A stretch of DNA of 64,000 bases. It comes from an uncultured Polyangiaceae bacterium (GTDB taxonomy: Bacteria > Myxococcota_A > Polyangia > Polyangiales > Polyangiaceae). The notes under the pieces were generated by a model. That model ran no database searches. It was not told where the DNA came from and saw only the letters and a list, made by a program, of their open reading frames with translations. The position numbers were made by a program, and so were the translations under genes. This document shows positions 30,804-45,900 of this stretch, one piece after another. Position 1 is the stretch's first letter; every line of letters begins with the position of its first letter. The stretch is from assembly GCA_964531795.1 (NCBI GenBank), contig CAZHHD010000002.1, forward strand, positions 1 through 64,000, read 5' to 3'.

Positions 30804-30823
30804 CGAGCGCGCTCCGCGTCCCC

Positions 30824-31915
30824 TCAGGGAACGGCGGGGCGCGTCGAAGGCGCGGGGGCGGCGCTCGGCGTGGGCGTCGGCGCGGTCGTGGGGGTCGGAG
30901 CCGGCGCGGGCGTCGGCGCCGCGGTCGGGGCGAGCGTCGGCGTCGCGGCCTGGGGAGCCACCGGCGCGCCGGCGTCGCTCGGGCTCGCCCCTTCGCTCGC
31001 CGCTCCGCCGTCGACTACGCCTTCGATGGGCGTGTGGACCTCGTCGCCGACGTCGCTCGTTCCTTCGTCGGCTTCGCTCCCGCCCGGCCCGCCGTAGCGC
31101 GGCGCCTCGCCGGGGTGCGAGTAGTCGATCCAATACGCCGAGCTCGCGCGCGCATCCATGTGCACGAACGTGCTGTTCGGATAGTAGCCGCAGCCGGTGT
31201 TCTTCAGCGTGCGGCAGTAGTCGCGGAGCACTTCGTTGGGGACGCCCACCACGCGGAAGTCCATGGCGTGGCCGATGTTGTGGTTCGAGTGCTTCGTGTA
31301 CTGCGTCGTCTTGTACGGTCGGAAGCCGCTGATGACCTCGATCTTCCGTCCGCCGAAGTGGTTCGAGACGATGCCCGCCAACGCCACGAGGCGCGGCTCG
31401 ATCTCGTGCTCCTGATTGTTCGTCGCCCGGAGCATGTGCTGAAACGACTTGATGGCGGTCGGCGGTACGCGGCCGCGCCGATCCTTCACGCGGATCTGAA
31501 AATCCTCGCTCGTGGCCAGGCGCGTGGCGTGGATCACGTCGGGGGTCTTGGGGCGCGAGGCGTAGTTGATGGGCTTTTGCGGCCTTTCCTTGCCGCCGGC
31601 CTTGTCCCCTTTGCCGCCGGGGAGCGCCGCCGCGACCGTGCCGTGCCCGGTGGGCTCGGGCTTCGTCACCCCGGGGATGACCAGGGTCTCGCCGACCTTC
31701 AGGTGCTTCGGGTCTTTGATGTGGTTTTGGTCGACGATGGCCTTCACCGTCACGTGGTAGCGGTGGGCGATCGCCTCGATGGTGTGCCCACGCGCCACGG
31801 TGTGGGTGACGTCGGCGCGCGCGCCGCCCGGAAGAAGCGCCCAAGCACCGCCAAAGAGCAGGAAAAGACCGGCTCGGAGCGCGAGGGACGGCGGGGCCAT
31901 GGCGGCGCGTCTCAT
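30824..31915 (-). CDS. LysM domain + DUF882 (peptidase M15A-like) secreted protein with Pro/Thr/Ala-rich tail
   Basis: 363 aa from the ATG at 31913-31915. It has a signal peptide, a LysM motif (HTVARGHTIEAIAHRYHVTVKAIVDQNHIKDPKHLKVGETLVIP) and a DUF882 core (SGFRPYKTTQYTKHSNHNIGHAMDF...YYPNSTFVHMD). Confidence 0.75.
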   Translation of the reverse strand: MRRAAMAPPSLALRAGLFLLFGGAWALLPGGARADVTHTVARGHTIEAIAHRYHVTVKAIVDQNHIKDPKHLKVGETLVIPGVTKPEPTGHGTVAAALPGGKGDKAGGKERPQKPINYASRPKTPDVIHATRLATSEDFQIRVKDRRGRVPPTAIKSFQHMLRATNNQEHEIEPRLVALAGIVSNHFGGRKIEVISGFRPYKTTQYTKHSNHNIGHAMDFRVVGVPNEVLRDYCRTLKNTGCGYYPNSTFVHMDARASSAYWIDYSHPGEAPRYGGPGGSEADEGTSDVGDEVHTPIEGVVDGGAASEGASPSDAGAPVAPQAATPTLAPTAAPTPAPAPTPTTAPTPTPSAAPAPSTRPAVP

Positions 31916-32047
31916 AGCACAGGGCCCGCGCACCGAGCACCAGGCGACGGCGGACTTTTTGACCGCTTGAGGACGGGGATGCCACACTTGTGTCCTCGCG
32001 GAATCCTGCGGCGCGTCGCGCTTCGGGTACGCAGACGAGGCAGGAGC

Positions 32048-33103
32048 ATGGCCGAAGGCAAGAACCTGGTCGGGGTCGACATCGGCGCGAGCTCGATCAA
32101 GGTCGTCCAATTGAAGGAGGCGAGGAAGCGCTACAGCGTGGTCCGCTACGCGTACGCCCCTTTGCCGCCGCAGACGATCGTCGACGGTCACGTGATGAGC
32201 ACCGGCGTCGTCACCGAGACCCTGTCGCGCATGTTCACCGACGCGAAGATCTCGCAGCGTGACGTGGCCATCGGGGTCTACGGCCAGTCGGTCATCGTCC
32301 GAAAAATCACCGTCCCCATGATGACCCCCGACGAGCTCGAGGAGCAGATCAACTGGGAGGCGGAGCAACACATCCCCTTCGACATCAAGGTCATGTCGAT
32401 CGACTACGAGGTGCTGAGAAAGCGCCCCGAAGCCGGCCAAATGGACCTCCTCCTCGTCGCCGCCAAGAAGGACGAGATCAACGACTACGCGGCGATCGTC
32501 CGCGAGGCGAAGCTCAAGCCGATCGTCGTCGACATCAACGCCTTCACCGTCCAGAACATCTTCGAGCACACCGCCGGGCTCCCGCAGGACCAGACCGTGG
32601 CGCTCCTGAACGTCGGCGCGGCGGTCAGCAGCTTGAACATCGTCTCCCGCGGGGTGAGCGCGTTCACGCGTGAGATCGCCAACGCCGGCAACGCCGTCAC
32701 CGAAGAAATCCAAAAGCAGCTCTCGGTCTCCTTCGAGCAGGCCGAGGCGTACAAGCTGACCGCGTCGAACCCTGCGGGCGTTCCTCAGCAGGTGCACCAG
32801 GCCATCAACGGCGCGTGCGACACGCTCGCCGCGGAGATTCAGCGCTCGCTCGACTTCTACCTCGCCACCAGCGGTGAGGCCGAAATCACCCGGATCTACA
32901 TGTGCGGCGGGAGCGCGTACCTCGGCCCGCTGGCGCAGTCCGTCGAGCGCCGCGCTCGCGTGCCGGTCACGCTCTTCGACCCCACGATGAACCTGACCGT
33001 CGACGCCAAGACCGCCAACGAGCAAGATCTCCGCTCGCGCGCCTCGCAGTTCGTCGTGGCCATCGGGCTCGCCCTCCGCACCGACAAGGAGCGCCGCGCG
33101 TGA
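32048..33103 (+). CDS. pilM: type IV pilus assembly protein PilM
   Basis: 351 aa. It has an actin-like ATPase fold with the PilM N-terminus (LVGVDIGASSIKVVQL). Confidence 0.9.
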   Translation: MAEGKNLVGVDIGASSIKVVQLKEARKRYSVVRYAYAPLPPQTIVDGHVMSTGVVTETLSRMFTDAKISQRDVAIGVYGQSVIVRKITVPMMTPDELEEQINWEAEQHIPFDIKVMSIDYEVLRKRPEAGQMDLLLVAAKKDEINDYAAIVREAKLKPIVVDINAFTVQNIFEHTAGLPQDQTVALLNVGAAVSSLNIVSRGVSAFTREIANAGNAVTEEIQKQLSVSFEQAEAYKLTASNPAGVPQQVHQAINGACDTLAAEIQRSLDFYLATSGEAEITRIYMCGGSAYLGPLAQSVERRARVPVTLFDPTMNLTVDAKTANEQDLRSRASQFVVAIGLALRTDKERRA

Positions 33104-33747
33104 TTCGCGTCAACCTACTCCCGCAGAAGCGCGAGACCGCGCGAAGGGCCGCCTCGGGCGAGAGCCAGACTTGGCTCTTCGTCATCCTCGGCGTCGTGCT
33201 GCTCGAGATCGTCGTCTTGATCTTCTTCCAGAAGCACAAGGAAGACGAGCTCGCGAAGATCACCGCCGACAACCAGAAGGTGAACGCCAACATCACCGAC
33301 ATCAAGAACCAGATCGCCAACCACGACGAGATCAAGGCGCAGCTGAAGGAGCTGCGCGATCGTGAAGAGGCGATCGCGAAGCTGCAGTCGGCGCGCACCG
33401 GCCCGACGTCGGTGCTCCTCGAGGTCGGTCGCATCCTCACGCCCGGTCGCGGCCCCACCGTGGACCACGACAAGCTCGAGCAGATGAAGCGCGACAACCC
33501 CGGCGCCGTCCCCAACGCCAACTGGGACACGCGGCGCTTGTGGATGACCGAGTACTCCGAGGGCGATCGCAAGGTGAAGATCGTCGGTCAGGCGCGTGAC
33601 GGCGAGGACGTCTCGGAGTTTTTGCGGCGGCTCTCGCTCAGCGACTACTTCTACGAAGTCCGGCTCATGCCGGCGACGAAGGCCATCGACGCCACGACGC
33701 ACCTCGAGCTCATCAAGTTCGAGCTCAGCGCAAAGGTGAGGTACTGA
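33100..33747 (+). CDS. pilN: type IV pilus assembly protein PilN
   Basis: 215 aa. Its GTG start overlaps the pilM stop (GTGA). It begins VIRVNLLP and has a TM helix (WLFVILGVVLLEIVVLIFF) and a coiled coil. Confidence 0.8.
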   Translation: MIRVNLLPQKRETARRAASGESQTWLFVILGVVLLEIVVLIFFQKHKEDELAKITADNQKVNANITDIKNQIANHDEIKAQLKELRDREEAIAKLQSARTGPTSVLLEVGRILTPGRGPTVDHDKLEQMKRDNPGAVPNANWDTRRLWMTEYSEGDRKVKIVGQARDGEDVSEFLRRLSLSDYFYEVRLMPATKAIDATTHLELIKFELSAKVRY

Positions 33748-33748
33748 C

Positions 33749-34342
33749 ATGGCCGCCCCGGCTCCCAGCGCGCTCGCCAAGCTCACCACCCCCGTTCGCT
33801 ACGGCATCGGCGGCTTCATCGCGGTGCTCATCGCCGCCGGCTACTGGCTCGTGTTCTTCACCGACGTGTCGGCCAAGATCGACTCGGCAGTGAAGCAAGG
33901 CGACAGTCTGCGCGCCGACCTCGCTCGGGAGAAAGAGGCGCAAGCGAGCTACTTTGCCGATCGCGACGAGCTCGCCTTGCGCCAACAGCGCGCGCGCGAG
34001 CTCAACAAGGCGCTCCCCGCCGAGACCGAGATCGCCACGTTCCTCTCGGCGATTCAGCAGGTGGCGAACGTCTCCGGTGTCGACCTCAAAGGCTGGCAAC
34101 CGGCGGAAGAGAAGACCGAGGCCTTCTACGCCAAGGTGCCGATGTCCATCGAGCTCGTCGGCCGCTACCATCAGATCGCCAAGTTCGCCTACGAGATGGG
34201 GCGCCTCGAGCGCATCATCAACATCGAGAACATCGAGCTCGGCTCACCGAAGGTCGAAGGTGACGAGGTGAAGCTCAAAGCCAAGTGCCTCGCCACGACC
34301 TTCCACGTGCCCAAGGCCAAGCCGAAGGGAGCCACCAAGTGA
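33749..34342 (+). CDS. pilO: type IV pilus assembly protein PilO
   Basis: 197 aa. It has a TM helix (GIGGFIAVLIAAGYWLVFF), a coiled coil and a C-terminal PilO domain. Confidence 0.8.
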   Translation: MAAPAPSALAKLTTPVRYGIGGFIAVLIAAGYWLVFFTDVSAKIDSAVKQGDSLRADLAREKEAQASYFADRDELALRQQRARELNKALPAETEIATFLSAIQQVANVSGVDLKGWQPAEEKTEAFYAKVPMSIELVGRYHQIAKFAYEMGRLERIINIENIELGSPKVEGDEVKLKAKCLATTFHVPKAKPKGATK

Positions 34343-35007
34343 CGCTCCGCCCCGTTCACCGCGTTCAGGACGGCGCTCGCACCGTCCTCAGGCGCACGCG
34401 CCCGCTCCTCGCCGTGGCCTTCCTCGCCGCGCCGTTCGTGCTGCTCGCCTGCGGCGGCAAGAGCGCGTCGAACGACACCGCTGCGAAGCCGCCCCCGCCC
34501 GCGGAGCGCGCCGCGCAGAAGGCCGCCGCCCCCGCCGACGCCGGCAAGCCGCCGGGCCCGGCCGTCGAATACGGCGAGAACGACTTCGTCGAGAGCGATC
34601 GCAACCGCGATCCGTTTCGCTCCTTCGCCGCCGCGTTCGTCGCGCAAGGACCGAAGGCCATCACGCGCCAGCTCTCGGTGATCTTGCCGCAGTACTCGAT
34701 CGACGAGCTCACCCTCGTGGCCATCCAGACCGGAGGCGATCTCCCGCGCGCCATGGTGCTCGACCCCACGAAGAAGGGCTGGGTCTTGAAGCGCGGCGAT
34801 TACGTCGGTCGCCCCGACGTGGTGCACACCGGCGGCACGAACGGCGTCGACTACCAGCTCAATTGGCGCGTCGATCGCGTGCGCGACGGAGACGTCGTCC
34901 TGACGCGCGAGGATCCCGCGCAGCCCGGCATCGCGCCGGCGACCCGCGTCCTCCTCCTCCATCCCGAGGCGGACAAGGCCGGGAACGAGTCCACGAACCG
35001 CAACTGA
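34339..35007 (+). CDS. pilP: type IV pilus assembly lipoprotein PilP
   Basis: 222 aa. Its GTG start overlaps the pilO stop. It has a lipobox (FVLLAC) and a PilP-like C-terminus (RDPFRSF...ELTLVAI). Confidence 0.7.
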   Translation: MTLRPVHRVQDGARTVLRRTRPLLAVAFLAAPFVLLACGGKSASNDTAAKPPPPAERAAQKAAAPADAGKPPGPAVEYGENDFVESDRNRDPFRSFAAAFVAQGPKAITRQLSVILPQYSIDELTLVAIQTGGDLPRAMVLDPTKKGWVLKRGDYVGRPDVVHTGGTNGVDYQLNWRVDRVRDGDVVLTREDPAQPGIAPATRVLLLHPEADKAGNESTNRN

Positions 35008-35058
35008 GGGGGCCTCGCGGCTCTCGGTCTGCGCGTCGCTCCGTGCGCTGACGACGCG

Positions 35059-35946
35059 TCACTGCGACGCGAGCGCTTGCTTCAGCGCGCGCACGCGGTC
35101 GGCCCGCGGGCTGTGCGGGTAGTCCTCGAGGAACTGATCGGCGAGCCGCATCGCCTCGTCGCTCTTGTGCGCTTGCGCGAGCGCCTCGATGCGGAGCGCG
35201 CGCGCGTCGGTGCTCGAGAGCTCGCCCGGGTAGTCGCGATCGTACTGGTCGAGGATCGCGAGCGCGCGCGTCGTGTCTTTGGCGTCGAGCGCGGAGCGGG
35301 CCGCGTCGAGGGCCATCCCCTCGGTGGGGAACGAGTACTTCGAAGGCGGGTGCTTCTTGTCGCGCCGCGCGAAGGCGCTCCTTCGCCCGGCGTCGCCACG
35401 GAGCGATTCGAGCGATTCGGTCGGAGGAAGATCGCCGATGGGTCGAGCTGTGACCGTGAGCAGCGAGGGCGGCGCCGGCAGAGGCCTAGGGCCGAGATCT
35501 TGGTTCGCCGCCACCGGCGGAGAAAGGGGGCGCGGGGGCTCCTGCAGGCTCGATCCGGCGACCCGCGCGAGACCGAAGACGAGCAGCGTCCCCCCGAGAC
35601 CGACAGCGAGCCATTGCCACGCCGGTGTCCTCTGCATGTCGCTGGGGGACGGGAGAAAGCGCAGCCCCCCGCCCGCGAGCGGGCCCTGGGTCGTCGGGGG
35701 GGCGAGAGGCGCGGGCGGCGAAGCGCCCGGGCTCGTCGGTGCATCGGGCGCGACGTTGCCCGGCGTGGCGCTCGGCGTCGTGGCACCGACCTCGGGCGGC
35801 GCCGGCCCCTGCGAGGTGACCGGTGTCGCGCCCGCCGGAGCGGCTTGGCTCGCGGAGGGCTCGCCTTCGGCGGCGCTCGCGCCCCCGACCGGCGCGTCAC
35901 CCGGAAGCCACGCCCCCGGCCCGCCGCCCTGCTTCTCGTCGCTCAT
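35059..35946 (-). CDS. hypothetical Pro-rich membrane protein with C-terminal TPR-like helical domain, antisense between pilP and pilQ
   Basis: 295 aa from the ATG at 35944-35946, preceded by a GGGAGGGG RBS. It has a high-GC3 frame, a Pro/Ala-rich N-terminal region, one TM helix (WQWLAVGLGGTLLVFGLA) and a helical TPR-like C-terminus (ALRIEALAQAHKSDEAMRLADQFLEDYPHSPRADRVRALKQAL). Confidence 0.5.
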   Translation of the reverse strand: MSDEKQGGGPGAWLPGDAPVGGASAAEGEPSASQAAPAGATPVTSQGPAPPEVGATTPSATPGNVAPDAPTSPGASPPAPLAPPTTQGPLAGGGLRFLPSPSDMQRTPAWQWLAVGLGGTLLVFGLARVAGSSLQEPPRPLSPPVAANQDLGPRPLPAPPSLLTVTARPIGDLPPTESLESLRGDAGRRSAFARRDKKHPPSKYSFPTEGMALDAARSALDAKDTTRALAILDQYDRDYPGELSSTDARALRIEALAQAHKSDEAMRLADQFLEDYPHSPRADRVRALKQALASQ

Positions 35947-36170
35947 GACCCCTCCCATGATGCCATCTTTCGCCGCTTCGCGGGAATTCGCGCAGAGAAC
36001 GTCGGCGCCGTCGTCGGCAGCGAGCTTTCGAGCCGACCCACGTGTAGGAGCGAAGCACTGCCACAAATTGGTCCCTTTGCGAGACCTCCGATTACCGTCC
36101 GATCTGCGATCCCCTGAAGTCGACCCTCCCCATCGAGCGGTCGGTCTCTGGTGACGCGAGGAGCTCCACG

Positions 36171-38567
36171 ATGGAACGGGAAAAGGCTCGCTTTTGGCAG
36201 AGGCGCTTCGCTCGCTCGCCGATCGCGCGTTACGGTGTCGTCGCAGCTGCGCTCGTGCTCCTTTCGGGCAGCGCCGCGCACGCCGAGATGGGCTTCAACC
36301 ACGTGCGCGACGTGCGCGTGCACGACGCCGACGGCACCCCGGGCGGTGCGGAGATCGAAGTCGTGGGGACGGCGGTGCCGACCTTCCACGCTCGCCTCGC
36401 CGAAGGGGGGAAGCGCCTCATCGTCGACATCACCAACTCCGACGTCGTCGGCGCCCCGCAGGCGCTCACGAACCTCCCCGGAGTGGTCGGTGGCGTGCTG
36501 ACCCAAGCCTTCCGCGACGACGGCGCGTCGGTCACGCGGCTCTCCATCGGCTTGGCGCAGCAGGCGACGTATCGTGTTCGCAGCGAAGGGAACACGCTCC
36601 ACATCGTCATCAGCCCGAGCGGTGCTTCGGTCCCCGCACCGAGCGCCGGCAGCGCCACCAACGCCAAGGGCGGCGGCGAGCAACAAGCCGAGATTCGCGA
36701 CGTCCGCTTCGAGCGCGCGCCGGCGTCGGCGGCCACCGCCTCGCACTGCACGCACGGCTGCGACCGCGTCGTCGTCATGATGACCGGCTCGCCCGGCTAC
36801 GCGATGACCACCACGCCGACGGGGCGCATTCGTCTCGAGATGAAGGGCACCCGCGTCCCCGAGGGGCTGAGGCGCACGCTCGACGTCACCGGATACCGGG
36901 GAAATCTCCGCGCGGTCAGCACCTTCCAAGATCCGAAGACCGGCGCCGCCATCGTCGAGATCGATCGCGCGCCGGGCGCCGCCGAGGCCGACCAAGGCAA
37001 CGTCACGGTCGACGGCGACAAGCTCGTCTGGGCCTTCGACGTCCCCAAGAGCAACGTCACGTCGCCCATCGGTCAGGGCGGGCTCGCGCCCGACGGCGGC
37101 GCGATGCGCCACGTCGTCACCGTCGAGCGGGACGATCCCGGCCCGTCGGTGCAGCGTATCGATACCTCGATCCACGACGCCGACATCCACGTGGAGACTT
37201 CGGAAGGCGGCCAAGCGGGCTTCGCTTCCGGTCTCAACGCGCAGGCCATCGGCAACGGCGGTCGCTACAACGGTCGTCGTATCGACCTCGACCTCAAAGA
37301 CGCCGACATCCACAACATCCTGCGCCTGCTCGCCGACGTCGGCCGCGTGAACATCGTCACCGCCGACGACGTCACCGGCAGCGTCACCATCCGCATGCGC
37401 AACGTCCCCTGGGACCAAGCGCTCGACGTCGTGCTCCAGGCCAAGGGCCTCGGCATGGTGCGGCAGGGGAACCTGATTCGCGTGGCGCCGATGGCGCAGC
37501 TCCAGAAAGAGCGTGAGCTTCGCCTCGCGCAGCAAAAGCAGGAGCTCGACCTCGCGCCGCTCGAGACGCGCCTCATCCCGGTGAGCTACGCGCAAGCCGA
37601 CGAGCTCCAAGCGCGGGCGAAGGACTTCCTCTCGCCGCGCGGATCGCTCGCCGTCGACGAGCGCACCAACGTGCTCATCGCCCGCGACGTCGCCGGCAAC
37701 TTGAACCACATCGAGGAGCTCGTTCGCTCTCTCGACACGCAGACCCCGCAGGTGCTCGTCGAAGCGCGCATCGTCGAGGCCACGAGCAAGTACCTCCGCG
37801 ACATCGGTATCCAGTGGGGTGGCGACGCGACCTTCAGCGAAGCCACCGGCAACCCCACCGGCGTGGCCTTCCCCTCGCGCGTCGGCGCGACCGGCGGTGC
37901 CTCCGACGCCAACACGCCGACGGCCGGTCTCTCGCCGTTCCAGCGCACGGTGCCGAACCCGAACTTCGCCGTGAACCTTCCGGCGGCGACCGGTACCGGA
38001 CAAGGTGGCGCCCTCGGCCTCACGTTCGGATCGATCGACAACAACTTCAACTTGGGCGTGCGTCTCTCCGCGGCCGAGTCGAGCGGCATGCTCCGCATCG
38101 TGTCGAGCCCGCGCATCTTGACCTTGGACAACCGCGAAGCGCGCATCAACCAAGGCACGTTGATCCCGTTCGCGCAGGTGAGCGCGCAGGGTGTGCAGAC
38201 GACCTTCCAAGAGGCCAAGCTGCAGCTCCTCGTGAAGCCGCACGTGACGGCCGACGGCTCGGTCGCGATGCACGTGAAGATCAACCGCGACGAGCCCGAC
38301 TTCAACCAGACCTCGGCGCGCGGCGATCCCACCATCTTGAAGCGTGAGGCGGAGACCGACCTGCTCGTGATGGACGGTCACACCGCGGTCATCGGCGGCA
38401 TCTTCACCAGGAACACCGGCCGCAACATCGATCAGGTGCCGTTCTTCGGCGACATCCCCATCCTCGGCGTGCTCTTCCAGCGCCGAAGGGCCTCGGACTC
38501 GCGCAACGAGCTCGTGATCTTCCTCACCCCGCGCATCGTGAACCGAGCCGAAGCGCTCGGTCGCTGA
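36171..38567 (+). CDS. pilQ: type IV pilus secretin PilQ
   Basis: 798 aa. It has a signal peptide, N-terminal AMIN-like repeats, N0/N1 domains and a C-terminal secretin domain (VMDGHTAVIGGIF...VPFFGDIPILGVLF). Confidence 0.9.
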   Translation: MEREKARFWQRRFARSPIARYGVVAAALVLLSGSAAHAEMGFNHVRDVRVHDADGTPGGAEIEVVGTAVPTFHARLAEGGKRLIVDITNSDVVGAPQALTNLPGVVGGVLTQAFRDDGASVTRLSIGLAQQATYRVRSEGNTLHIVISPSGASVPAPSAGSATNAKGGGEQQAEIRDVRFERAPASAATASHCTHGCDRVVVMMTGSPGYAMTTTPTGRIRLEMKGTRVPEGLRRTLDVTGYRGNLRAVSTFQDPKTGAAIVEIDRAPGAAEADQGNVTVDGDKLVWAFDVPKSNVTSPIGQGGLAPDGGAMRHVVTVERDDPGPSVQRIDTSIHDADIHVETSEGGQAGFASGLNAQAIGNGGRYNGRRIDLDLKDADIHNILRLLADVGRVNIVTADDVTGSVTIRMRNVPWDQALDVVLQAKGLGMVRQGNLIRVAPMAQLQKERELRLAQQKQELDLAPLETRLIPVSYAQADELQARAKDFLSPRGSLAVDERTNVLIARDVAGNLNHIEELVRSLDTQTPQVLVEARIVEATSKYLRDIGIQWGGDATFSEATGNPTGVAFPSRVGATGGASDANTPTAGLSPFQRTVPNPNFAVNLPAATGTGQGGALGLTFGSIDNNFNLGVRLSAAESSGMLRIVSSPRILTLDNREARINQGTLIPFAQVSAQGVQTTFQEAKLQLLVKPHVTADGSVAMHVKINRDEPDFNQTSARGDPTILKREAETDLLVMDGHTAVIGGIFTRNTGRNIDQVPFFGDIPILGVLFQRRRASDSRNELVIFLTPRIVNRAEALGR

Positions 38568-38603
38568 CCGTCGCCGAAGAGGCGGAGCCTCGAGAACGCC
38601 GTC

Positions 38604-38640
38604 GGGCTTCGCTCTCCGCGGGCCCGACGACGTCGGGCTC
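38604..38640. terminator. GC-rich inverted repeat, candidate bidirectional terminator between convergent pilQ and kinase genes
   Basis: cgtcgggc...gcccgacg and gcccgac-gac-gtcgggc form a hairpin in the 78-nt convergent intergenic gap. Confidence 0.3.
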
Positions 38641-38644
38641 TCCC

Positions 38645-39853
38645 TCAGTGCGCGATCGCGCGCACGACGACCACCGCCGCCACGACGAGGCCGGCAGCGA
38701 CGGCGATCGCGCCCGCCGTCATGATGCCGACCCACAGGACCACGTGGCGGTCGACCCACCCGATGAACGAGCTCGTCACCGCCTTGGTGAGGCTGACGGG
38801 GCATTGAATGGGAATGTCCCCTCCCTGCAGGCGACGGAGGCGTTCCACCATGGCGCCGGCGTCGGCGTAGCGCTTGGCCGGATCGCGGGCGAGGGCGCCG
38901 GACGTGAACCACATGAGCTCCATGCCGACCCCGGCCTTGGCGAAGAAGGGCTGGAGGTTCGCCCGCCCGTCGAGGTCGTGATGGAGGAGCGTCGCGAGGA
39001 CCGCGGGCGCCGACGTCAACGATCCGAGCGGGTGTTCGAGCGTCAGGAGCTCCACCGCCACGAGGCCGGCAGCGAACACGTCGCTCCGTGCGTCGACCTC
39101 GGAGTTCTTCCCCGCGGCCTGCTCGGGCGACATGTAGAGGATCGTGCCGAGGAGCGTGCCGGCCTGCGTCTCCACCAGGCGATCGCGGCGTTCGCCGGTC
39201 GCCGCGAGCGCGTCGACCTTCGCTGGATCTTCGGCCTGGCCGATCTGCTTGGCGATCCCCCAGTCCATCAACGTGACCTCGCCGTGGGGCCCCACCATGA
39301 TGTTGGCGGGCTTGAGATCGCGATGCACGAAGCCGCGGCTGTGGGCGTAGGACAGCGCCTCGAGGATCTTGCCGAGCACCTCCACGCGCTTGGTGACGGG
39401 ATATCTCTCGACGAAGGCCGGCTCGTGAGCCCGTAGCCCCTCGAGGATGCGCTCGAGCGTGTCCCCCTCGACGAACTTCATGACGAGATAGAGCTGCCCG
39501 TCGTCGTCGACCCCGACGTCGTGCACCGGGACGATGCCGGGGTGCTCGAGCTGGCCGATGATCCGCACCTCGTCGGCGAAGCGGAGAAGCGTCGACTCCC
39601 CGCTCTGATCTTGGCGGATGCGCTTGATGGCGACGCGACGCTGGATGTCCTCGTCGAGGGCGAGCACCACCTCGCCCATCCCGCCTTCGCCGAGCGGCTT
39701 CACGTGACGGAACCTTCGTCCGGTGCTCTGCGCGGCCGCCGCGGCGCCCCCTTCGCGACGCGGCAAGACGGTGCCGCGCGCCTGACCGGCGACGAGCGTC
39801 TTGTCGGCGGCGGCGACGGTCTCGCCCAAGGGTTCGGTTCCCGGAGGGGTCAT
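38645..39853 (-). CDS. Hanks-type Ser/Thr protein kinase with C-terminal TM anchor
   Basis: About 402 aa from the ATG at 39851-39853. It carries G-loop LGEGGMGEVV, AIK, HRDLKPANIMV and DWG, and a C-terminal hydrophobic helix (HVVLWVGIMTAGAIAVAAGLVVAAVVVV). Confidence 0.8.
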   Translation of the reverse strand: MTPPGTEPLGETVAAADKTLVAGQARGTVLPRREGGAAAAAQSTGRRFRHVKPLGEGGMGEVVLALDEDIQRRVAIKRIRQDQSGESTLLRFADEVRIIGQLEHPGIVPVHDVGVDDDGQLYLVMKFVEGDTLERILEGLRAHEPAFVERYPVTKRVEVLGKILEALSYAHSRGFVHRDLKPANIMVGPHGEVTLMDWGIAKQIGQAEDPAKVDALAATGERRDRLVETQAGTLLGTILYMSPEQAAGKNSEVDARSDVFAAGLVAVELLTLEHPLGSLTSAPAVLATLLHHDLDGRANLQPFFAKAGVGMELMWFTSGALARDPAKRYADAGAMVERLRRLQGGDIPIQCPVSLTKAVTSSFIGWVDRHVVLWVGIMTAGAIAVAAGLVVAAVVVVRAIAH

Positions 39854-40007
39854 CGCGCGCCTCGCGGTCGATGCTACCACGCGCGTTGCGACGGCCAGGG
39901 CGTGGGCCGGCACCGGCCGCTACTGCATGCGTGGACAGGTGGGAGCATGGGAGCGCGCACACTTGCTTTACGCACCCCGGCCGAAGGGTGCAAAGTGCTG
40001 CCCCCTC

Positions 40008-42716
40008 ATGCCCACCGAGCATCGTCTCCACGCCCGCTGCGGGTGTGGCCTCGCGCACTCCCGAATCGACGAGCAAGAGCACCACGCCGCGGAGGCCAGC
40101 TCCGCGGGGCGGCCCTTCGCCTTCGGTGCCACGCCGCGGCACTTCGAGCGCGATCGCCCGTTCGCCGTCGAGCACCTCGCTCTCGATCTGACGCTCGACC
40201 TGGACGCCAAGAGCGTGTCGGGCACGGCGTCGCTCACGGTGAAGCGGGTCGACCCGAACGCCACCGAGCTCCCGCTCGACGCCATCGGCTTCGATCTGCA
40301 GAAGGTCACGCTCGACGGACACAGGGTCGCGCATCGCTACGACGGTCGCGTCCTCACCGTCACCATCCCCGTCGCATCGCGCGGGGGCGTGCTCGCCGTC
40401 ACCTACTCGGCCACGCCGCGCCGCGGGCTCTACTTCCTCGAGCCCGACGAGCACGTGAAGGACCGCCCGCGTCAGGTGTGGAGCCAGTGCCAAGAAGAGG
40501 ACGCGCGCCACTTCTTGCCGTGCCACGACAAGCCGCACGTGAAGATGACGACCGAGATGACGGTCACCGTGCCCAACGGTTTCTACGTCCTCTCGAACGG
40601 CGAGCTCGCGTCCTCGAGCAAGCCCAAGGAAGGGCCCTGGCGCTTCCACTGGAAGATGAGCGCGCCGCACCCGAGCTACCTGCTCACGCTCGTGGCCGGC
40701 GAGTTCGCCGAGGTGACGGCCAAGGCCGGCGGCGTGCCGCTCTCTTACCTCGTCCCGCGCGGGCGCGAGGGGGACGTGGAGCGCACCTTCGGGCGCACCC
40801 CGCAGATGATCGAGTACTTCGGCACGCTCACCGGCGTCGCCTTCCCCTGGAACAAGTACGCCCAGGTCGTGGTGAGCGACTTCATCTTCGGCGGGATGGA
40901 GAACACGACCGCCACCACGATGTACGAGCACATCTTGCTCGACGAGCGCGCCGCGCTCGACGTCACCTCCGACGATCTCGTGGCCCACGAGCTCGCGCAC
41001 CAGTGGTTCGGCGACTACGTCACGTGCCGCGACTGGTCCGACGGATGGCTCAACGAGGGCTTTGCCACCTTCATGGAGCACGTCTGGCGCGAGAAGCACC
41101 TCGGCAAGGACGAGCACGAGTACGCGGTGAAGGGGGATCTCGACGCGTACATGGCCGAGGCCGCGGGGCGCTATCGCCGGCCCATCGTGTGCCACGCGTA
41201 CGACGCGCCGCTCGATCTCTTCGATCGGCACCTCTACGAGAAGGGGGGCTTGGTCCTCCACCTCCTTCGCCTGGAGCTCGGGAGCGATCTCTTCTGGCGC
41301 GGGGTCTCGGTCTACTTGAAGCGCCACGCCTTCGGCGTCGTGGAGACGAAAGACCTCCAGCGCGCGCTCGAAGAGGTGAGCGGCCGGAGCCTCGGACGCC
41401 TCTTCGACCAGTGGGTGTACAGGCCCGGGCACCCCGACCTCGAGGTCGCGTTCTCGTGGGAACGCGGGATTTTGCAGGTCGCGGTGAAGCAGACGCACGC
41501 CTCGACCGACGACGTCCCCTCGGTCTTCGAGGTGCCGCTCCACCTCGACATCGTCGACGCTCAAGGGAAAGTGCATCGCGAGCGGCTCGCCGTGACCCAG
41601 CGCACCGAGTCGTTCGCCATTCCCGCCGCCGAGCGCCCCGCCTTCGTCGTCGTCGATCCGGAGATGCGTGTCCTCGGCGACATCTCGCTCCGCGCCCCCG
41701 CCGACATGCTCCGCGCCCAGGTCGCCAAGGCGCCGACGGCGCGCGGTCGCTGGCTCGCCGCGCACGCGCTCGCCAAGCACGACGATCCCACGACGCGCGC
41801 CGCGCTCGTCGCGCGCCTGGAAGACGAGGCCGAGTTCTGGGGCGTGCGCGCCACCGCCGCCGAGACCCTGGGAATCCTCCGCGGAAAAGAGAGCTTCGCC
41901 GCGCTCGCCGAGAACGCCTACGTCACGCACCCCAAGGTGCGCCGCGCGGTCGTCTCGGCGCTCGGGCGCTTCCGCACCGCCGCCGCCGCGGAGACGCTCC
42001 GTCCGCTCGCCCTCCGCGACGCGAGCTTCCTCGTGGAGGCCGAGGCCGCGCGCTCGCTCGGCAAGACCAAGCAGGCTTCGGCGTTCGACACGCTCGTCGA
42101 CGTCATGGATCGCCCGTCGTGGGCCGACGTGATCCGCGTCGGCGCCATCGACGGGCTCGCGGCGCTCCGCGACGATCGCGCCGCCCCGCACGTGCTCTCG
42201 CGCCTTCGTTACGGCCACGCCACGCGCGCGCGCCGCGCCGCCATCTTGGCGGTGCCCAAGCTGATGAGCGACCGACGCGGCCGAGAGGCGCTGGAAGAGC
42301 TCCTCGAGGACGACGATCCGCACCTTCGCATCGACGTCGTGCGTGCGCTCACCGAGTACGGCGACGGAAAATCGCGCCCGGCGCTCCGCGGCCGGCTCGA
42401 GGTCGATCTCGATCCGCGCGTTCGGCGCCGCATTCGCGAGGCGCTGCGTGACCTCGGCGGCGAAGGGAAGAAGTCGCTCGAGCAGCTCAAAGAGGAGCTC
42501 GAGCGCTTGCAGAACGAGCACACCGACCTGAAGGCACGGCTCGCGCAGATCGAAGCGCGCGTCACCGGCGAAGCCTCCTCCTCCAAGGGGAACGGCTCGC
42601 CGCCCGCCGCCGCCAAGGCGGGGAAGGGCGCCGCCGAGGCGAGCAAGAGCGAGAAGAAGGGCGAGAAGCCGGCCAAGGACGCAAAGCAAGAGAAGGCACG
42701 ACGGAGGAAGCGATGA
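40008..42716 (+). CDS. M1 family aminopeptidase fused to C-terminal HEAT/PBS-lyase-like repeats and Lys-rich tail
   Basis: About 902 aa from the ATG at 40008. It has the GxMEN motif (GGMENTT) and the zinc-binding HELAHQWFGD...EGFATF. The C-terminal ~300 aa contain HEAT-like repeats (VRATAAETLG; VRRAVVSALG; VRVGAIDGLA; IDVVRALTEYGD), then a coiled coil and a KKGEKPAKDAKQEKARRRKR tail. Confidence 0.8.
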   Translation: MPTEHRLHARCGCGLAHSRIDEQEHHAAEASSAGRPFAFGATPRHFERDRPFAVEHLALDLTLDLDAKSVSGTASLTVKRVDPNATELPLDAIGFDLQKVTLDGHRVAHRYDGRVLTVTIPVASRGGVLAVTYSATPRRGLYFLEPDEHVKDRPRQVWSQCQEEDARHFLPCHDKPHVKMTTEMTVTVPNGFYVLSNGELASSSKPKEGPWRFHWKMSAPHPSYLLTLVAGEFAEVTAKAGGVPLSYLVPRGREGDVERTFGRTPQMIEYFGTLTGVAFPWNKYAQVVVSDFIFGGMENTTATTMYEHILLDERAALDVTSDDLVAHELAHQWFGDYVTCRDWSDGWLNEGFATFMEHVWREKHLGKDEHEYAVKGDLDAYMAEAAGRYRRPIVCHAYDAPLDLFDRHLYEKGGLVLHLLRLELGSDLFWRGVSVYLKRHAFGVVETKDLQRALEEVSGRSLGRLFDQWVYRPGHPDLEVAFSWERGILQVAVKQTHASTDDVPSVFEVPLHLDIVDAQGKVHRERLAVTQRTESFAIPAAERPAFVVVDPEMRVLGDISLRAPADMLRAQVAKAPTARGRWLAAHALAKHDDPTTRAALVARLEDEAEFWGVRATAAETLGILRGKESFAALAENAYVTHPKVRRAVVSALGRFRTAAAAETLRPLALRDASFLVEAEAARSLGKTKQASAFDTLVDVMDRPSWADVIRVGAIDGLAALRDDRAAPHVLSRLRYGHATRARRAAILAVPKLMSDRRGREALEELLEDDDPHLRIDVVRALTEYGDGKSRPALRGRLEVDLDPRVRRRIREALRDLGGEGKKSLEQLKEELERLQNEHTDLKARLAQIEARVTGEASSSKGNGSPPAAAKAGKGAAEASKSEKKGEKPAKDAKQEKARRRKR

Positions 42717-43501
42717 GCGAAGAGAAGCCCGTCCGCGTCGAACGTCGCGGCCCGGTCGTGGTCTGGACCATCGATCGGCCCGATCGATCGAACAGCCTCT
42801 CGCGCGCGACGCTCCTCGAGCTCGGTCGCCTCACCCGCGAGGCCGTCGCCGACGACGCCGTGCGCGCCATCGTCCTCACGGGCGCGGGGGAAAAGGCCTT
42901 CTGCGCCGGCGCCGATCTGAAGGAGCGCCAAGGCATGACCGAGAACGACGTGCGCGTGCAGGTCGAGCTCTATCGGAGTCAGCTGGGGCCGCTCGATCAC
43001 TCGCCGAAGCCGGTGATCGCCGCCATCAACGGCGTGGCCTTCGGCGGCGGGCTCGAGCTCGCCCTCGTGTGCGATCTCCGCGTCGCCGCGGCTCACGCGA
43101 CCTTCGCGCTCCCCGAGACTTCGCTGGGCATCATCCCCGGCGCCGGCGGCACGCAAAGGCTCCCGCGCCTCGTCGGGGAAGCGCGCGCCAAAGAGATGAC
43201 GCTCCTCTGCCGCAGACTCGCCGCCGACGAGGCGCTCGAGTGGGGGCTCGTGAACCGCGTCGTCCCCGCGGGGATCTCACTCGTCGACGACGTGCTCGCG
43301 TGGATCGAGCCCATCGCCCAGGGCGCGCCCATCGCGCAAGCGGCAGCGCTCGAAGCGATCGATCGCGGGCTCGACTCGACGCTCGAGGTCGGGCTCGAGC
43401 TCGAGAAGGTCAGCTACGACAAGACACTCGTGAGCTCCGACCGGCGCGAGGCGCTCACCGCCTTCGCCGAGAAGCGAAAGCCCAAGTTCACCGGGGCGTG
43501 A
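42713..43501 (+). CDS. enoyl-CoA hydratase/isomerase family protein
   Basis: 262 aa. It has crotonase-fold motifs (AIVLTGAGEKAFCAGADLKE; AAINGVAFGGGLELALVCD). Its start overlaps the stop of the aminopeptidase gene (ATGA). Confidence 0.85.
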   Translation: MSEEKPVRVERRGPVVVWTIDRPDRSNSLSRATLLELGRLTREAVADDAVRAIVLTGAGEKAFCAGADLKERQGMTENDVRVQVELYRSQLGPLDHSPKPVIAAINGVAFGGGLELALVCDLRVAAAHATFALPETSLGIIPGAGGTQRLPRLVGEARAKEMTLLCRRLAADEALEWGLVNRVVPAGISLVDDVLAWIEPIAQGAPIAQAAALEAIDRGLDSTLEVGLELEKVSYDKTLVSSDRREALTAFAEKRKPKFTGA

Positions 43502-44267
43502 GCCCGCGGAGCGCGTCGCCGATGCGCCCCGCCACCCACTCGCGCTCGCGGAGGCTCAAGTCGGCGGCGTCGAGCGACTCCTCGCTCCCGTCGTCGAATT
43601 GAATCATCACCCCCGGGTTCTCTGCCGTCGCCGACTTCACGCGCGTAAGCTCGATCTCGCGCCGGCGCTTTTTGAACCAGCGCCCTTCCTCGAGGACGAA
43701 GAGGTTCTCTCCCGGCGAGACGACCACGCGGCGCCGGCCGTTCATCCACGAGGCGCACGCCAGCGCGCCGAAGAGGGCGAGCGTCCAGAAGGGGGCCGAG
43801 CTCCCCAGCACGACGTCGAGATCGCGCGTGGCCGAGCCGAGGTACACGTTCACGCGACCCGCGGCGGCGTACTTCGGCTCTTCGACGTTGTCCCACCCGG
43901 TGAGCGGCACGTGTCCGCTCGTCGTCGTGAGCACAAGCCGATAGAGCACCGTGGGTTCCGTCGCCGCGCCCCCGGCGCGGGCGCGACCCTCTTGCGTCTC
44001 GACCTCGGCGCCGAGCACGTCGCCCAAGGCGAAGGTGCGCGTCGCGCCGAGCCCCGCGAGCCCCGTGCGCACCTCGCACGTCTCGGTGCGCCGTGAGCAA
44101 GCGATCCGACCGGCCTCGTTGAGCACGAGGGTCAGCATCATGGTCGAAGGGAGCACCACGAGGAGCGCCAGGAAGAAGCGCGTGTTCCGGCGTGACATCG
44201 AGACGGTCACCGTCTCCGGCGTCGGCGCGACGGGCTCTCGTTCGGGCTGCCGGTAGGGGGTGCTCAT
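43488..44267 (-). CDS. hypothetical membrane protein
   Basis: 259 aa from the ATG at 44265-44267. It has two hydrophobic helices (FFLALLVVLPSTMMLTLVL; FWTLALFGALACASW) and a basic stretch (GRWFKKRRREIELTRV). Its 3' end overlaps the convergent hydratase gene by 14 nt. The upstream part of the 380-aa track ORF was rejected. Confidence 0.45.
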   Translation of the reverse strand: MSTPYRQPEREPVAPTPETVTVSMSRRNTRFFLALLVVLPSTMMLTLVLNEAGRIACSRRTETCEVRTGLAGLGATRTFALGDVLGAEVETQEGRARAGGAATEPTVLYRLVLTTTSGHVPLTGWDNVEEPKYAAAGRVNVYLGSATRDLDVVLGSSAPFWTLALFGALACASWMNGRRRVVVSPGENLFVLEEGRWFKKRRREIELTRVKSATAENPGVMIQFDDGSEESLDAADLSLREREWVAGRIGDALRGLTPR

Positions 44268-44322
44268 GGCTTCCGCGTGTGCGCTTCCCCTCGGCCCCGC
44301 GCCGCGGTAAACACGCGGCCCC

Positions 44323-45855: not shown

Positions 45856-45900
45856 CGGGACGCGCGAGCGCGCCGCCGATCTGAGCTAACCTTCCTCGCG

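What the first reader, a model, noticed from the sequence alone, without database searches (positions are those of the whole stretch)
35008..36170. Antisense gene inserted between pilP and pilQ
Where pilP normally abuts pilQ there is a 1.16-kb spacer. The opposite strand carries a 295-aa high-GC3 ORF with a GGGAGGGG RBS, a Pro-rich cytoplasmic N-terminus, one TM helix and a TPR-like helical C-terminus. This architecture is like anti-sigma factors or secretin-associated pilotin and scaffold proteins. Its position predicts either transcriptional interference with pilQ read-through or a dedicated T4P accessory factor.
Basis: partly seen in the sequence, partly recalled or inferred. Interest (0 to 1): 0.55.

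Follow-up and report, generated by a model that had tools for sequence, protein, structure and literature searches.

The report
Membrane TPR gene paired with pilQ
The opposite-strand ORF between pilP and pilQ is a real gene found only in one subgroup of Polyangia myxobacteria, where it always sits head-to-head with the pilus secretin gene pilQ; it encodes a single-pass membrane protein with a small TPR domain, descends from a family of anti-sigma-like proteins, and its role in pilus biogenesis is plausible but untested.

Summary
The pilP stop (35007) and pilQ start (36171) are 1,163 bp apart. The minus strand carries a 295-codon ORF (35059-35946) with coding-type GC3 (0.86), a GGGAGGGG Shine-Dalgarno, a disordered Pro/Ala/Gly-rich N-tail, one TM helix (aa 109-129) and a confident five-helix TPR-like C-terminal domain (aa 209-294).

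It is a conserved gene. The family is small: 27 sequence clusters in one search, 15 representatives at E<=1e-30 in an exhaustive search. It splits off a large family (about 2,000 representatives at E<=1e-10) of TM+TPR proteins. All eight members of that large family whose context I inspected directly follow an ECF sigma gene.

In nine of nine genomes orfX lies immediately upstream of pilQ and divergent from it. The gene on its other side varies: pilP, an SPW gene or a PAS kinase. All carriers form one clade on a PilQ tree. In 46 other Polyangia loci pilP abuts pilQ (median gap 143 bp).

pilQ has its own conserved ~55-nt upstream element, with or without orfX, so it need not depend on read-through.

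orfX fails membership tests for anti-sigma factors, pilotins, BamD, CpoB, GspB and FimV.

Best reading (inferred): an inner-membrane-anchored periplasmic TPR adaptor tied to PilQ. Moderate interest.

The parts
34339..35007 (+). pilP (222-aa model; a longer GTG start at 34285 is possible), last gene of the pilMNOP run (pilM 32036-33103, pilN ~33076-33747, pilO 33749-34342)
   Evidence: ORF list; weak PilP Pfam hit; same 222-aa gene called on identical contigs; tblastn orthologs next to pilO in about 56 loci
35008..35058 (.). 51-bp convergent spacer between the pilP stop and the orfX stop; no convincing terminator
   Evidence: No terminator-like site; hairpins no better than shuffles, z -0.9 and -1.4
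35059..35946 (-). orfX coding sequence, 295 aa plus stop
   Evidence: GC3 0.86 in frame; 27 orthologous clusters; dN/dS below 1 in all five ortholog pairs
35623..35946 (-). N-terminal tail (aa 1-108): disordered, Pro/Ala/Gly-rich, net acidic, probably cytoplasmic; length and sequence vary between orthologs but the MS[DE]E / MNDE start is conserved
   Evidence: Composition; pLDDT about 50; alignment A4; dN/dS 0.28-0.67 for N-tail+TM+linker
35560..35622 (-). Single transmembrane helix (aa 109-129, AWQWLAVGLGGTLLVFGLARV)
   Evidence: AF2 helix 109-129; Kyte-Doolittle maximum at aa 113; hydrophobic segment present in all orthologs
35332..35559 (-). Pro-rich linker (aa 130-205), probably periplasmic, with the family-invariant TV.A motif (LLTVTARPIG, aa 161-170 = 35437-35466)
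   Evidence: Invariant columns T164, V165, A167 in 27 sequences; disordered in AF2
35062..35331 (-). C-terminal five-helix TPR-like domain (aa 206-295) with invariant D-x-P-H-S-P signature (aa 275-280)
35950..35957 (-). Shine-Dalgarno-like GGGAGGGG, 2 nt upstream of ATG 35946 (an alternative in-frame ATG at 35956-35958 overlaps it)
   Evidence: Read directly from the sequence
35947..36170 (.). 224-bp divergent intergenic region shared by orfX and pilQ; it must hold both promoters
   Evidence: Ortholog intergenic regions are 144-180 bp, and the only conserved block is the pilQ-proximal element
36058..36112 (+). Conserved bipartite promoter-like element upstream of pilQ (core CACAAATTGGTCC-N18-TACCGT at 36062-36098), 59 nt before the pilQ ATG
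   Evidence: Unique in the window, 0 of 100 shuffles; nhmmer finds it once per locus in 43 of 86 loci, always on the pilQ strand, mostly 0-110 nt upstream (one at 259 nt, a few overlapping the estimated start), with or without orfX
36171..38567 (+). pilQ, type IVa pilus secretin (798 aa), preceded by GAGGAG
   Evidence: TIGR02515 437 bits; Secretin, Secretin_N, STN, AMIN

Best explanation
orfX is a real protein-coding gene restricted to one lineage. One subclade of Polyangia acquired it once, immediately upstream of pilQ and divergent from it, and has kept it there.

It encodes a bitopic inner-membrane protein with four parts. The first is a disordered, acidic Pro/Ala-rich N-terminal tail, probably cytoplasmic. 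The second is one TM helix. The third is a Pro-rich linker of about 75 residues with an invariant TV.A motif. The fourth is a 90-residue, five-helix TPR domain, probably periplasmic.

The TM plus TPR module descends from a large family of ECF-sigma-coupled, anti-sigma-like proteins. orfX has lost both the sigma partner and the sigma-binding N-terminus.

Most likely mechanism (inferred, not shown): the TPR domain is held on a flexible linker that can reach across the periplasm. There it binds PilQ or a PilQ-proximal envelope partner and assists or monitors secretin targeting, assembly or anchoring. This would work in the manner of inner-membrane secretin scaffolds such as GspB/OutB, or of TPR pilotins, without orfX belonging to either family. 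orfX and pilQ would be expressed from a shared, back-to-back control region.

Shown: the gene is real, its domain anatomy, its ancestry, and its strict linkage to pilQ. Inferred: topology, the PilQ interaction and co-regulation.
For: Coding. GC3 is 0.86 in frame. 27 clusters score 155-315 bits, then scores drop sharply to <=76 bits. An exhaustive search gives 15 representatives at E<=1e-30. dN/dS is 0.14-0.49 for the TPR domain and 0.28-0.63 for the rest in the four less-diverged pairs; the near-saturated window-L005 pair gives 0.68 and 0.67. The N-terminus MS[DE]E/MNDE is conserved.

Ancestry. The C-terminal domain aligns with P0004-P0011 and others. All 8 paralogs inspected directly follow an ECF sigma gene.

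Linkage. orfX is directly adjacent to pilQ and divergent from it in the window, L005, L007/L090, L011, L092, L093, L094 and L095. The gene on its far side is pilP (window, L090), an SPW gene (L005, L095) or a PAS-HK/RR hybrid (L011, L092-L094). All carriers form one clade on a PilQ NJ tree, and every sampled member of that clade has orfX.

Shared control region. The orfX start lies 112 bp (window) or only 17-24 bp (L007, L011) from the conserved pilQ element.

Topology. Charges flanking the TM favour N-in in all three subgroups. The sigma-coupled paralogs must be N-in.
Against: No interaction, expression or phenotype data exist.

All carriers descend from one acquisition event, so the conserved adjacency is a single phylogenetic observation drawn out over time, not nine independent ones.

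The pilP-pilQ junction is a general insertion hot spot. Other lineages carry unrelated genes there: a methyltransferase, an arrestin-N-like gene, an ECF sigma pair and unknowns. Position alone is therefore weak evidence of function.

The TPR fold is generic. PilW and TadD pilotins score no better than dozens of unrelated TPR proteins.

Topology is not settled. Over the whole protein the N-tail is net acidic and the linker net basic, which would also fit N-out.

Most Polyangia with similar PilQ (59-73% identity) do without orfX.
Confidence: 0.5

Rival explanations
1. orfX is an orphan anti-sigma-type signalling protein. It still works as a transmembrane regulator. Its periplasmic TPR domain senses an envelope cue, possibly unassembled or mislocalised secretin. 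Its N-tail sequesters or recruits an unlinked cytoplasmic partner such as an ECF sigma factor or a kinase. Its role would then be regulatory rather than structural.
For: The TM+TPR module is homologous to proteins that always follow ECF sigma genes. ECF sigma/anti-sigma pairs of this family lie 1-5 kb downstream of pilQ in several relatives: L007/L090, L009, L013, L017. PAS-kinase and Ser/Thr-kinase genes neighbour orfX in L011 and L092-L094, and a Ser/Thr kinase follows pilQ in the window. The N-tail carries short motifs conserved within subgroups. The pilQ element ends in TACCGT, which resembles the CGT-type -10 of ECF promoters (my own knowledge, not tested).
Against: There is no anti-sigma domain. 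Pfam and NCBIfam find none. The N-tail does not align with the paralog N-termini and is modelled as disordered. No sigma gene is adjacent in 9 of 9 genomes, and none is found in the 18 kb searched around the locus (window 28001-46000). The pilQ element lacks the AAC -35 motif typical of ECF promoters and is present in genomes without orfX.
Confidence: 0.25
2. orfX is a passenger gene. It is a functional envelope protein unrelated to type IV pili that landed once in the permissive pilP-pilQ junction. It stays next to pilQ only because the two genes share a compact, entangled promoter region.
For: It was acquired once. The junction accepts unrelated inserts in other lineages, and pilQ is often detached from pilMNOP: 10 loci have gaps >=450 bp and 13 have no pilP within 3 kb. 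pilQ has an autonomous upstream element. Sister lineages lack orfX.
Against: The orfX-pilQ pair survived at least two rearrangements on the far side of orfX, namely the SPW insertion and the insertion of a ~5-kb kinase block or detachment from pilMNOP. Over the same period PilQ diverged to about 70% identity and orfX to 27-40% identity. Every sampled member of the clade retains it. It is under purifying selection.
Confidence: 0.18
3. orfX acts as a transcriptional roadblock. Its main effect is convergent transcription into pilP, which insulates pilQ from pilMNOP read-through. The protein product is secondary.
For: orfX is convergent with pilP with only 51 bp between the stops and no recognisable terminator.
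Against: The protein is under purifying selection, with an invariant TPR signature across 27 clusters. In L011 and L092-L094 orfX converges on a kinase gene, not on pilP. pilQ has its own conserved upstream element even where pilP abuts it.
Confidence: 0.04
4. orfX is not a gene. It is a chance open frame in 70% GC DNA.
For: High-GC DNA gives many long spurious ORFs here. One example is a 2,248-aa frame antisense to pilQ, and several others overlap orfX.
Against: The codon-position GC pattern is correct. Orthologs reach down to 27% identity with conserved domain structure and dN/dS below 1. AF2 folds the domain confidently.
Confidence: 0.02

Closest known systems
ECF-sigma-coupled single-pass anti-sigma-like proteins of Myxococcota with a C-terminal BamD-like TPR domain (uncharacterised; e.g. 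Labilithrix luteola AKJ09_04469 = P0004). DdvA of M. xanthus is a characterised myxobacterial anti-sigma factor with a much larger periplasmic TPR-containing domain (PMC11506125)
   Same: Homologous TM segment, linker and five-helix C-terminal domain (22-26% identity over the whole-protein alignment A2; 39-48% over the shared C-terminal segment). The ALRIEAL...FL...P..A.RV signature is shared. The overall layout is the same: short protein, one TM, C-terminal TPR.
   Different: orfX has no sigma gene next to it in any of 9 genomes, against 8 of 8 for the paralogs. The roughly 45-residue N-terminal region of the paralogs is replaced by a disordered Pro/Ala-rich tail of 60-130 residues. orfX has family-specific invariant motifs (TV.A, DxPHSP) and is tied to pilQ. 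DdvA has a zinc-binding anti-sigma domain and a ~900-residue TPR-CHAT domain (PMC11506125), neither of which is present here.
T4aP pilotins PilF / PilW / Tgl
   Different: Pilotins are outer-membrane lipoproteins with six TPRs (PMC10653833). orfX has no Cys, so no lipobox. It has no N-terminal signal peptide, is anchored by an internal TM helix, and has only about 2.5 TPRs.
GspB/OutB inner-membrane secretin scaffold of the T2SS
   Same: A bitopic inner-membrane protein with a periplasmic linker and a C-terminal domain that contacts the secretin and helps its targeting and assembly (PMC9239104). This is the closest functional analogy to the mechanism proposed here.
   Different: GspB uses a PilP-like homology-region (HR) domain and binds the secretin N0 domain. 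orfX has an all-helical TPR domain, and no interaction has been shown. There is no sequence similarity.
BamD (YfiO) and CpoB (YbgF) TPR domains
   Different: All sequence scores are below the curated cut-offs (25, 81.4 and 90.1). BamD is a five-TPR lipoprotein. CpoB is a secreted protein with a coiled coil plus TPRs. Only about 90 residues match.
FimV / TapV-type T4P assembly proteins
   Same: Single-pass membrane proteins with acidic, low-complexity regions and TPR motifs that promote secretin assembly (my own knowledge; TapV is mentioned in PMC7214476).
   Different: No LysM peptidoglycan-binding domain was found. orfX is much smaller, and the domain order and probable topology differ.

Membership tests
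ECF anti-sigma factor (single-pass, class I/ZAS type) | N-terminal cytoplasmic anti-sigma domain that binds the sigma factor | tested here: not met
   No anti-sigma or zf-HC2 hit in Pfam or NCBIfam. The N-tail does not align with the paralog N-termini and is modelled as disordered.
ECF anti-sigma factor (single-pass, class I/ZAS type) | Gene adjacent to, and co-oriented with, its cognate ECF sigma gene | tested here: not met
   0 of 9 orfX loci have an adjacent sigma gene, and no sigma-like ORF is found in the 18 kb around the locus (window 28001-46000). By contrast, 8 of 8 paralogs directly follow one.
ECF anti-sigma factor (single-pass, class I/ZAS type) | Single TM helix with an extracytoplasmic C-terminal sensor domain | tested here: inconclusive
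   One TM helix and a C-terminal domain homologous to that of the sigma-linked paralogs. Topology is inferred only from flanking charges and paralogy.
T4aP pilotin (PilF/PilW/Tgl) | Outer-membrane lipoprotein: signal peptide with a lipobox Cys | tested here: not met
   The protein contains no cysteine, and its first 108 residues are hydrophilic.
T4aP pilotin (PilF/PilW/Tgl) | Superhelix of six TPR motifs | tested here: not met
   Only five helices, about 2.5 TPRs, at aa 209-294. Definition taken from PMC10653833.
T4aP pilotin (PilF/PilW/Tgl) | Binds monomeric PilQ and is needed for its multimerisation | not testable with these tools
   This needs genetics and biochemistry or complex modelling. 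Only the genomic linkage to pilQ is shown.
BamD / YfiO (PF13525, TIGR03302) | Score above the curated family thresholds | tested here: not met
   PF13525 scores 23.8 against a cut-off of 25. TIGR03302 scores 23.7 against 81.4. Only profile positions 10-82 of 203 are matched.
CpoB / YbgF (TIGR02795) | Score above the curated threshold; secreted coiled-coil plus TPR architecture | tested here: not met
   TIGR02795 scores 20.1 against a cut-off of 90.1. orfX has no signal peptide or coiled coil and is TM-anchored.
GspB/OutB secretin scaffold | Periplasmic PilP-like homology-region (HR) domain that binds secretin N0 | tested here: not met
   The only folded domain is all-helical TPR. Family definition from PMC9239104. 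The bitopic inner-membrane layout is shared.
FimV/TapV | Periplasmic LysM peptidoglycan-binding domain | tested here: not met
   No LysM hit in Pfam at E<=0.1.
TPR-fold domain (generic) | Tandem helix-turn-helix repeats superimposable on solved TPR domains | tested here: met
orfX family (defined here) | TM + TV.A linker motif + TPR domain with D-x-P-H-S-P; gene divergent from pilQ | tested here: met
   Invariant columns in 27 sequences. Score gap between 155 and 76 bits. 9 of 9 contexts are next to pilQ.

The most novel reading that the evidence does not exclude
orfX would be a previously unrecognised kind of T4aP secretin accessory factor. It is a protein derived from an anti-sigma factor and anchored in the inner membrane. 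Its periplasmic mini-TPR domain would capture PilQ, either as an inner-membrane-tethered pilotin-like chaperone or as a sensor of secretin assembly or mislocalisation. Its disordered cytoplasmic tail would relay that state to the cell. This would be an example of a signalling module being repurposed into a secretin-dedicated component within one Polyangia clade.
Probability: 0.3. Interest if true: 0.6.

Novelty: new variant of a known kind. Interest (0 to 1): 0.4.

Why it matters
Secretin assembly factors such as pilotins, GspA/B, FimV and TsaP are diverse and lineage-specific. In Polyangia (Sorangium and Labilithrix relatives) nothing is known beyond the core pil genes. A gene kept head-to-head with pilQ across rearrangements is a concrete, testable candidate for a new accessory or monitoring component. 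It would also document how an anti-sigma sensor module can lose its sigma factor and be re-used.

The practical gains are modest. The family is small (about 15 representative clusters) and confined to mostly uncultured soil and water Polyangia. The work also yields a conserved pilQ upstream element that can serve as a handle for studying pilQ regulation in this class. Finally, it shows that pilQ is a separate evolutionary unit, and probably a separate transcriptional unit, from pilMNOP in Polyangia.

Tried and rejected
1. Intrinsic terminators and sigma-70 promoters in 34700-36500: none found. The hairpins in the 51-bp convergent spacer are no better than shuffles.

2. Metagenome DNA scan with the 3-sequence alignment: 485 pattern matches, none confirmed. 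It was not repeated, because the protein searches gave enough orthologs.

3. Profile of A2 against PDB sequences: no hit at E<=1.

5. Search for an ECF sigma gene: none by tblastn across the whole 64-kb window, and none by HMM in the 18 kb around the locus, window 28001-46000.

6. Sigma-54 reading of the pilQ element: rejected by inspection, because the GG-to-GC spacing is 7 nt rather than 10. A sigma-70 reading needs a 19-nt spacer. An ECF reading lacks the AAC -35 motif. The sigma factor is left undecided.

7. Shorter gene model starting at Met107, which would turn the TM helix into a cleavable signal peptide (MQRTPAWQWLAVGLGGTLLVFGLARVAG/SS). I judged it unlikely. Group-1 orthologs (P0002, P0003, P0015-17) have no Met there. 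The upstream region has coding GC3, a conserved MS[DE]E start and dN/dS below 1. A dual product is not excluded.

8. Local duplication of the neighbouring anti-sigma gene as the origin of orfX: not supported. The L007/L090 paralog scores lower against the orfX profile (53 bits) than unlinked paralogs do (70-76 bits).

9. Literature searches found no description of a gene between pilP and pilQ in myxobacteria.
Full report
1. WHAT IS IN THE SEQUENCE

The region lies in about 70% GC DNA. It holds a plus-strand run of pilM (32036-33103), pilN, pilO (33749-34342) and pilP (ending 35007). A 1,163-bp interval follows, then pilQ (36171-38567). pilQ is an unambiguous type IVa secretin: TIGR02515 at 437 bits, with Secretin, Secretin_N, STN and AMIN domains.

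On the minus strand the interval holds an ORF at 35059-35946, 295 aa from the ATG at 35946. GGGAGGGG sits 2 nt upstream. An in-frame ATG four codons further up is an alternative start. The codon-position GC pattern (0.75/0.62/0.86) matches that of the pil genes. The three overlapping ORFs in other frames do not show it. The word 'antisense' is not, because the ORF overlaps no other gene: it is 51 bp from the pilP stop and 224 bp from the pilQ start.

2. THE PROTEIN

Residues 1-108 are 21% Pro, 18% Ala and 16% Gly, with 3 basic and 8 acidic residues. Residues 109-129 (AWQWLAVGLGGTLLVFGLARV) form the only hydrophobic segment. Residues 130-205 are again Pro-rich. The protein has no cysteine.

Two AlphaFold2 runs, with 11 and 27 aligned sequences, agree. 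They give a TM helix at 109-129 and five helices at 209-294 with pLDDT above 90. Everything else is disordered.

3. IT IS A CONSERVED GENE FAMILY

A single-sequence search found the identical protein plus two clear orthologs (42-45% identity) and eight relatives that share only the C-terminal third. I then built a profile from five orthologs, covering the TM helix to the C-terminus. It found 27 clusters at 155-315 bits, after which scores drop sharply to 76 bits or less. An exhaustive HMM search of 1.84 billion representatives gave 15 hits at E<=1e-30, 1,973 at E<=1e-10 and 9,132 at E<=1e-3. So orfX is a small family that branches off a very large one.

The 27-sequence alignment shows three subgroups. 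N-tails vary in length and are compositionally similar. The start is conserved (MS[DE]E or MNDETKDP). A TM segment is present in all sequences. A TV.A motif in the linker is invariant, as is a D-x-P-H-S-P signature in the TPR domain.

Nei-Gojobori dN/dS between orthologs is 0.14-0.49 for the TPR domain and 0.28-0.63 for the rest. The near-saturated window-L005 pair gives about 0.68 and 0.67. The N-tail is thus translated and weakly constrained.

A shorter model starting at Met107 would make the TM helix a signal peptide. It is unlikely, because several orthologs have no Met there. I cannot exclude it as a second product.

4. ANCESTRY

The more distant relatives are proteins of about 220-290 aa with a short N-terminal region, one TM helix and the same C-terminal domain. 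Every one whose context I inspected sits directly after an ECF sigma gene, separated by 1-4 nt or overlapping it. These are P0004 in Labilithrix luteola, P0005, P0007 and P0037, plus the paralogs in L007/L090, L009, L013 and L017. P0004, P0005 and P0007 lie in the same operon type, so these eight are fewer than eight independent contexts.

This is the standard arrangement for an anti-sigma factor. A myxobacterial anti-sigma factor with a much larger periplasmic TPR-containing domain, DdvA, has been characterised (PMC11506125).

orfX has no adjacent sigma gene in any of nine genomes. No sigma-like ORF was found by tblastn across the window or by HMM in the 18 kb around the locus. Its N-tail neither aligns with the paralog N-termini nor matches any anti-sigma model. 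It therefore resembles an anti-sigma factor by descent but fails both defining tests.

5. GENOMIC CONTEXT: THE KEY RESULT

Scanning GTDB species genomes with the window's PilQ gave 80 Polyangia loci at 59-79% PilQ identity. Of the 69 loci with enough upstream sequence:
- 46 have pilP abutting pilQ, median gap 143 bp;
- 10 have gaps of 450 bp or more;
- 13 have no pilP within at least 3 kb.

The large gaps in other lineages hold unrelated genes: a methyltransferase, an arrestin-N-like protein, an ECF sigma gene with a membrane protein, and unknowns.

orfX orthologs occur only next to pilQ, always immediately upstream and divergent. The nine contexts are:
- pilMNOP-orfX<>pilQ: the window and identical contigs, and L090/L091;
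- pilMNOP-SPW-orfX<>pilQ: L005, and L095, whose contig ends in the PilQ N-terminus;
- contig end-orfX<>pilQ: L007;
- PAS-HK/RR | orfX<>pilQ: L011 and L092;
- pilOP-[305 aa]-[Ser/Thr kinase]-[PAS-HK/RR]-orfX<>pilQ: L093 and L094.

On a neighbour-joining tree of the conserved PilQ C-terminal region these loci form one clade. Every sampled member has orfX, and the sister clade has none (no bootstrap was run). So there was one acquisition. The orfX-pilQ pair was then retained while the far side of orfX was remodelled at least twice. Over that time PilQ diverged to about 70% identity and orfX to 27-40%.

6. REGULATORY LAYOUT

The only conserved block in the orfX-pilQ intergenic region is a ~55-nt element at 36058-36112, with the core CACAAATTGGTCC-N18-TACCGT. 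It is unique in the window. nhmmer finds it once per locus in 43 of 86 loci. It is always on the pilQ strand. It lies mostly 0-110 nt upstream of the estimated pilQ start, with one case at 259 nt and a few overlapping the estimated start. It occurs in loci with orfX, in loci where pilP abuts pilQ, and in loci where pilQ is detached from pilMNOP.

pilQ therefore very probably has its own promoter or regulatory site throughout this part of Polyangia. That explains why the junction tolerates insertions. It also argues against a role for orfX in blocking read-through.

In L007 and L011 the orfX start codon is only 17-24 bp from this element, against 112 bp in the window. The two promoters must therefore be back-to-back or overlapping. 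This could couple their expression. It could also mechanically disfavour separating the two genes.

I could not assign the element to a sigma factor. No sigma-70 consensus promoter or intrinsic terminator was found.

7. MECHANISM

Shown: the gene is real, its domain anatomy, its descent from sigma-coupled TM-TPR proteins, the loss of the sigma partner, and strict linkage to pilQ.

Inferred:
(i) N-in/C-out topology. The evidence is near-TM flanking charges in all three subgroups and paralogy with anti-sigma factors. The net charge of the whole tail and linker points weakly the other way.
(ii) The TPR domain, on a linker of about 75 residues, binds PilQ or a PilQ-proximal partner in the periplasm.
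(iii) This assists or monitors secretin targeting, assembly or anchoring.

The closest working analogies are GspB/OutB and the TPR pilotins PilF/PilW/Tgl. GspB/OutB is a bitopic inner-membrane protein whose periplasmic domain binds the secretin and helps assemble it (PMC9239104). The pilotins bind the unfolded beta-lip of PilQ (PMC10653833). orfX belongs to neither family: it has no HR domain, no lipobox, and 2.5 rather than 6 TPRs.

I put about 0.5 on a PilQ-directed periplasmic adaptor or monitor. I put about 0.25 on a regulatory orphan anti-sigma-type role, about 0.18 on a passenger gene held in place by promoter entanglement, and a few per cent on a pure transcriptional roadblock or a non-gene.

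8. VERDICT

orfX is an uncharacterised, narrowly distributed variant of a known theme: a membrane-anchored TPR envelope protein derived from an anti-sigma factor, with unusually tight linkage to a secretin gene. Its function is untested, and the linkage traces to a single evolutionary event, so interest is moderate (0.4).

Noticed in passing
window 36058-36112 (+); also L008-L094, upstream of pilQ: A ~55-nt bipartite element (CACAAAyTGGTCC-N~18-(GTTC)TACCGT) is conserved upstream of pilQ in 43 of 86 Polyangia loci. It occurs once per locus, always on the pilQ strand, and is independent of orfX. It is absent from the Sorangium/Chondromyces/Polyangium branch. The sigma factor or regulator that uses it is unknown.
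   Followed up: partly
L007 4220-6105; L090 786-2368; L009 ~11.3-12.9 kb; L013 5238-6799; L017 14491-15880: An ECF sigma gene followed by a TM+TPR anti-sigma-like paralog of orfX lies 1-5 kb downstream of pilQ in several relatives, including members of the orfX clade. The window has no such pair. Whether this sigma factor acts on pilQ or on orfX is open.
   Followed up: partly
L014 5166-6827, L040 4864-6333, L047 5047-6669, L062 3696-4758, L083 2866-4677: The pilP-pilQ junction is an insertion hot spot in Polyangia. Different lineages carry unrelated genes there: two unknowns, a methyltransferase, an ECF sigma gene with a membrane protein, and an arrestin-N-like protein. In 13 loci pilQ has no pilP within at least 3 kb upstream.
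   Followed up: partly
L093 7000-11733; L094 6978-11639; L092 6665-10476; L011 199-2109; window 38645-39913 (-): In one orfX subgroup a PAS histidine-kinase/response-regulator hybrid, a Ser/Thr kinase and a 305-aa unknown lie between pilP and orfX. In the window a Ser/Thr kinase gene sits just downstream of pilQ on the opposite strand. A signalling link to the T4P genes is possible.
   Followed up: no
L005 7114-7485; L095 1583-1909: In two relatives a small SPW-domain membrane protein gene is inserted between orfX and pilP.
   Followed up: no
window ~30824-31900 (-); L090 9935-10891: A LysM + Peptidase_M15 (peptidoglycan-binding peptidase) gene lies upstream of pilM and divergent from it. It is conserved in the relative L090/L091, where an extra ECF sigma gene follows it. 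The domains were assigned from the ortholog, not by scanning the window copy.
   Followed up: no
window 35626-35628 (Met107 of orfX): An internal ATG just before the TM helix would give a 189-aa product with a signal-peptide-like N-terminus (MQRTPAWQW...ARVAG/SS). Gene callers chose such short starts for some orthologs (P0018, P0023, P0032, P0033). A secreted second isoform is not excluded.
   Followed up: partly
window 35943-42689 (-), 35077-36117 (+), 35273-36154 (+), 35082-35900 (-): There are very long stop-free frames, including a 2,248-aa ORF antisense to pilQ and three frames overlapping orfX. The three overlapping frames lack the coding GC3/GC2 pattern and look like high-GC artefacts. 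The 2,248-aa frame was not tested.
   Followed up: partly
P0002 / L005 orfX N-tail: The N-tail of the L005 ortholog contains tandem peptide repeats (TPEPFAPLT / TPEPIAPLA, about 9 copies). The tails of the other orthologs differ in length by more than 100 residues. This suggests rapid repeat expansion and contraction in this region.
   Followed up: no
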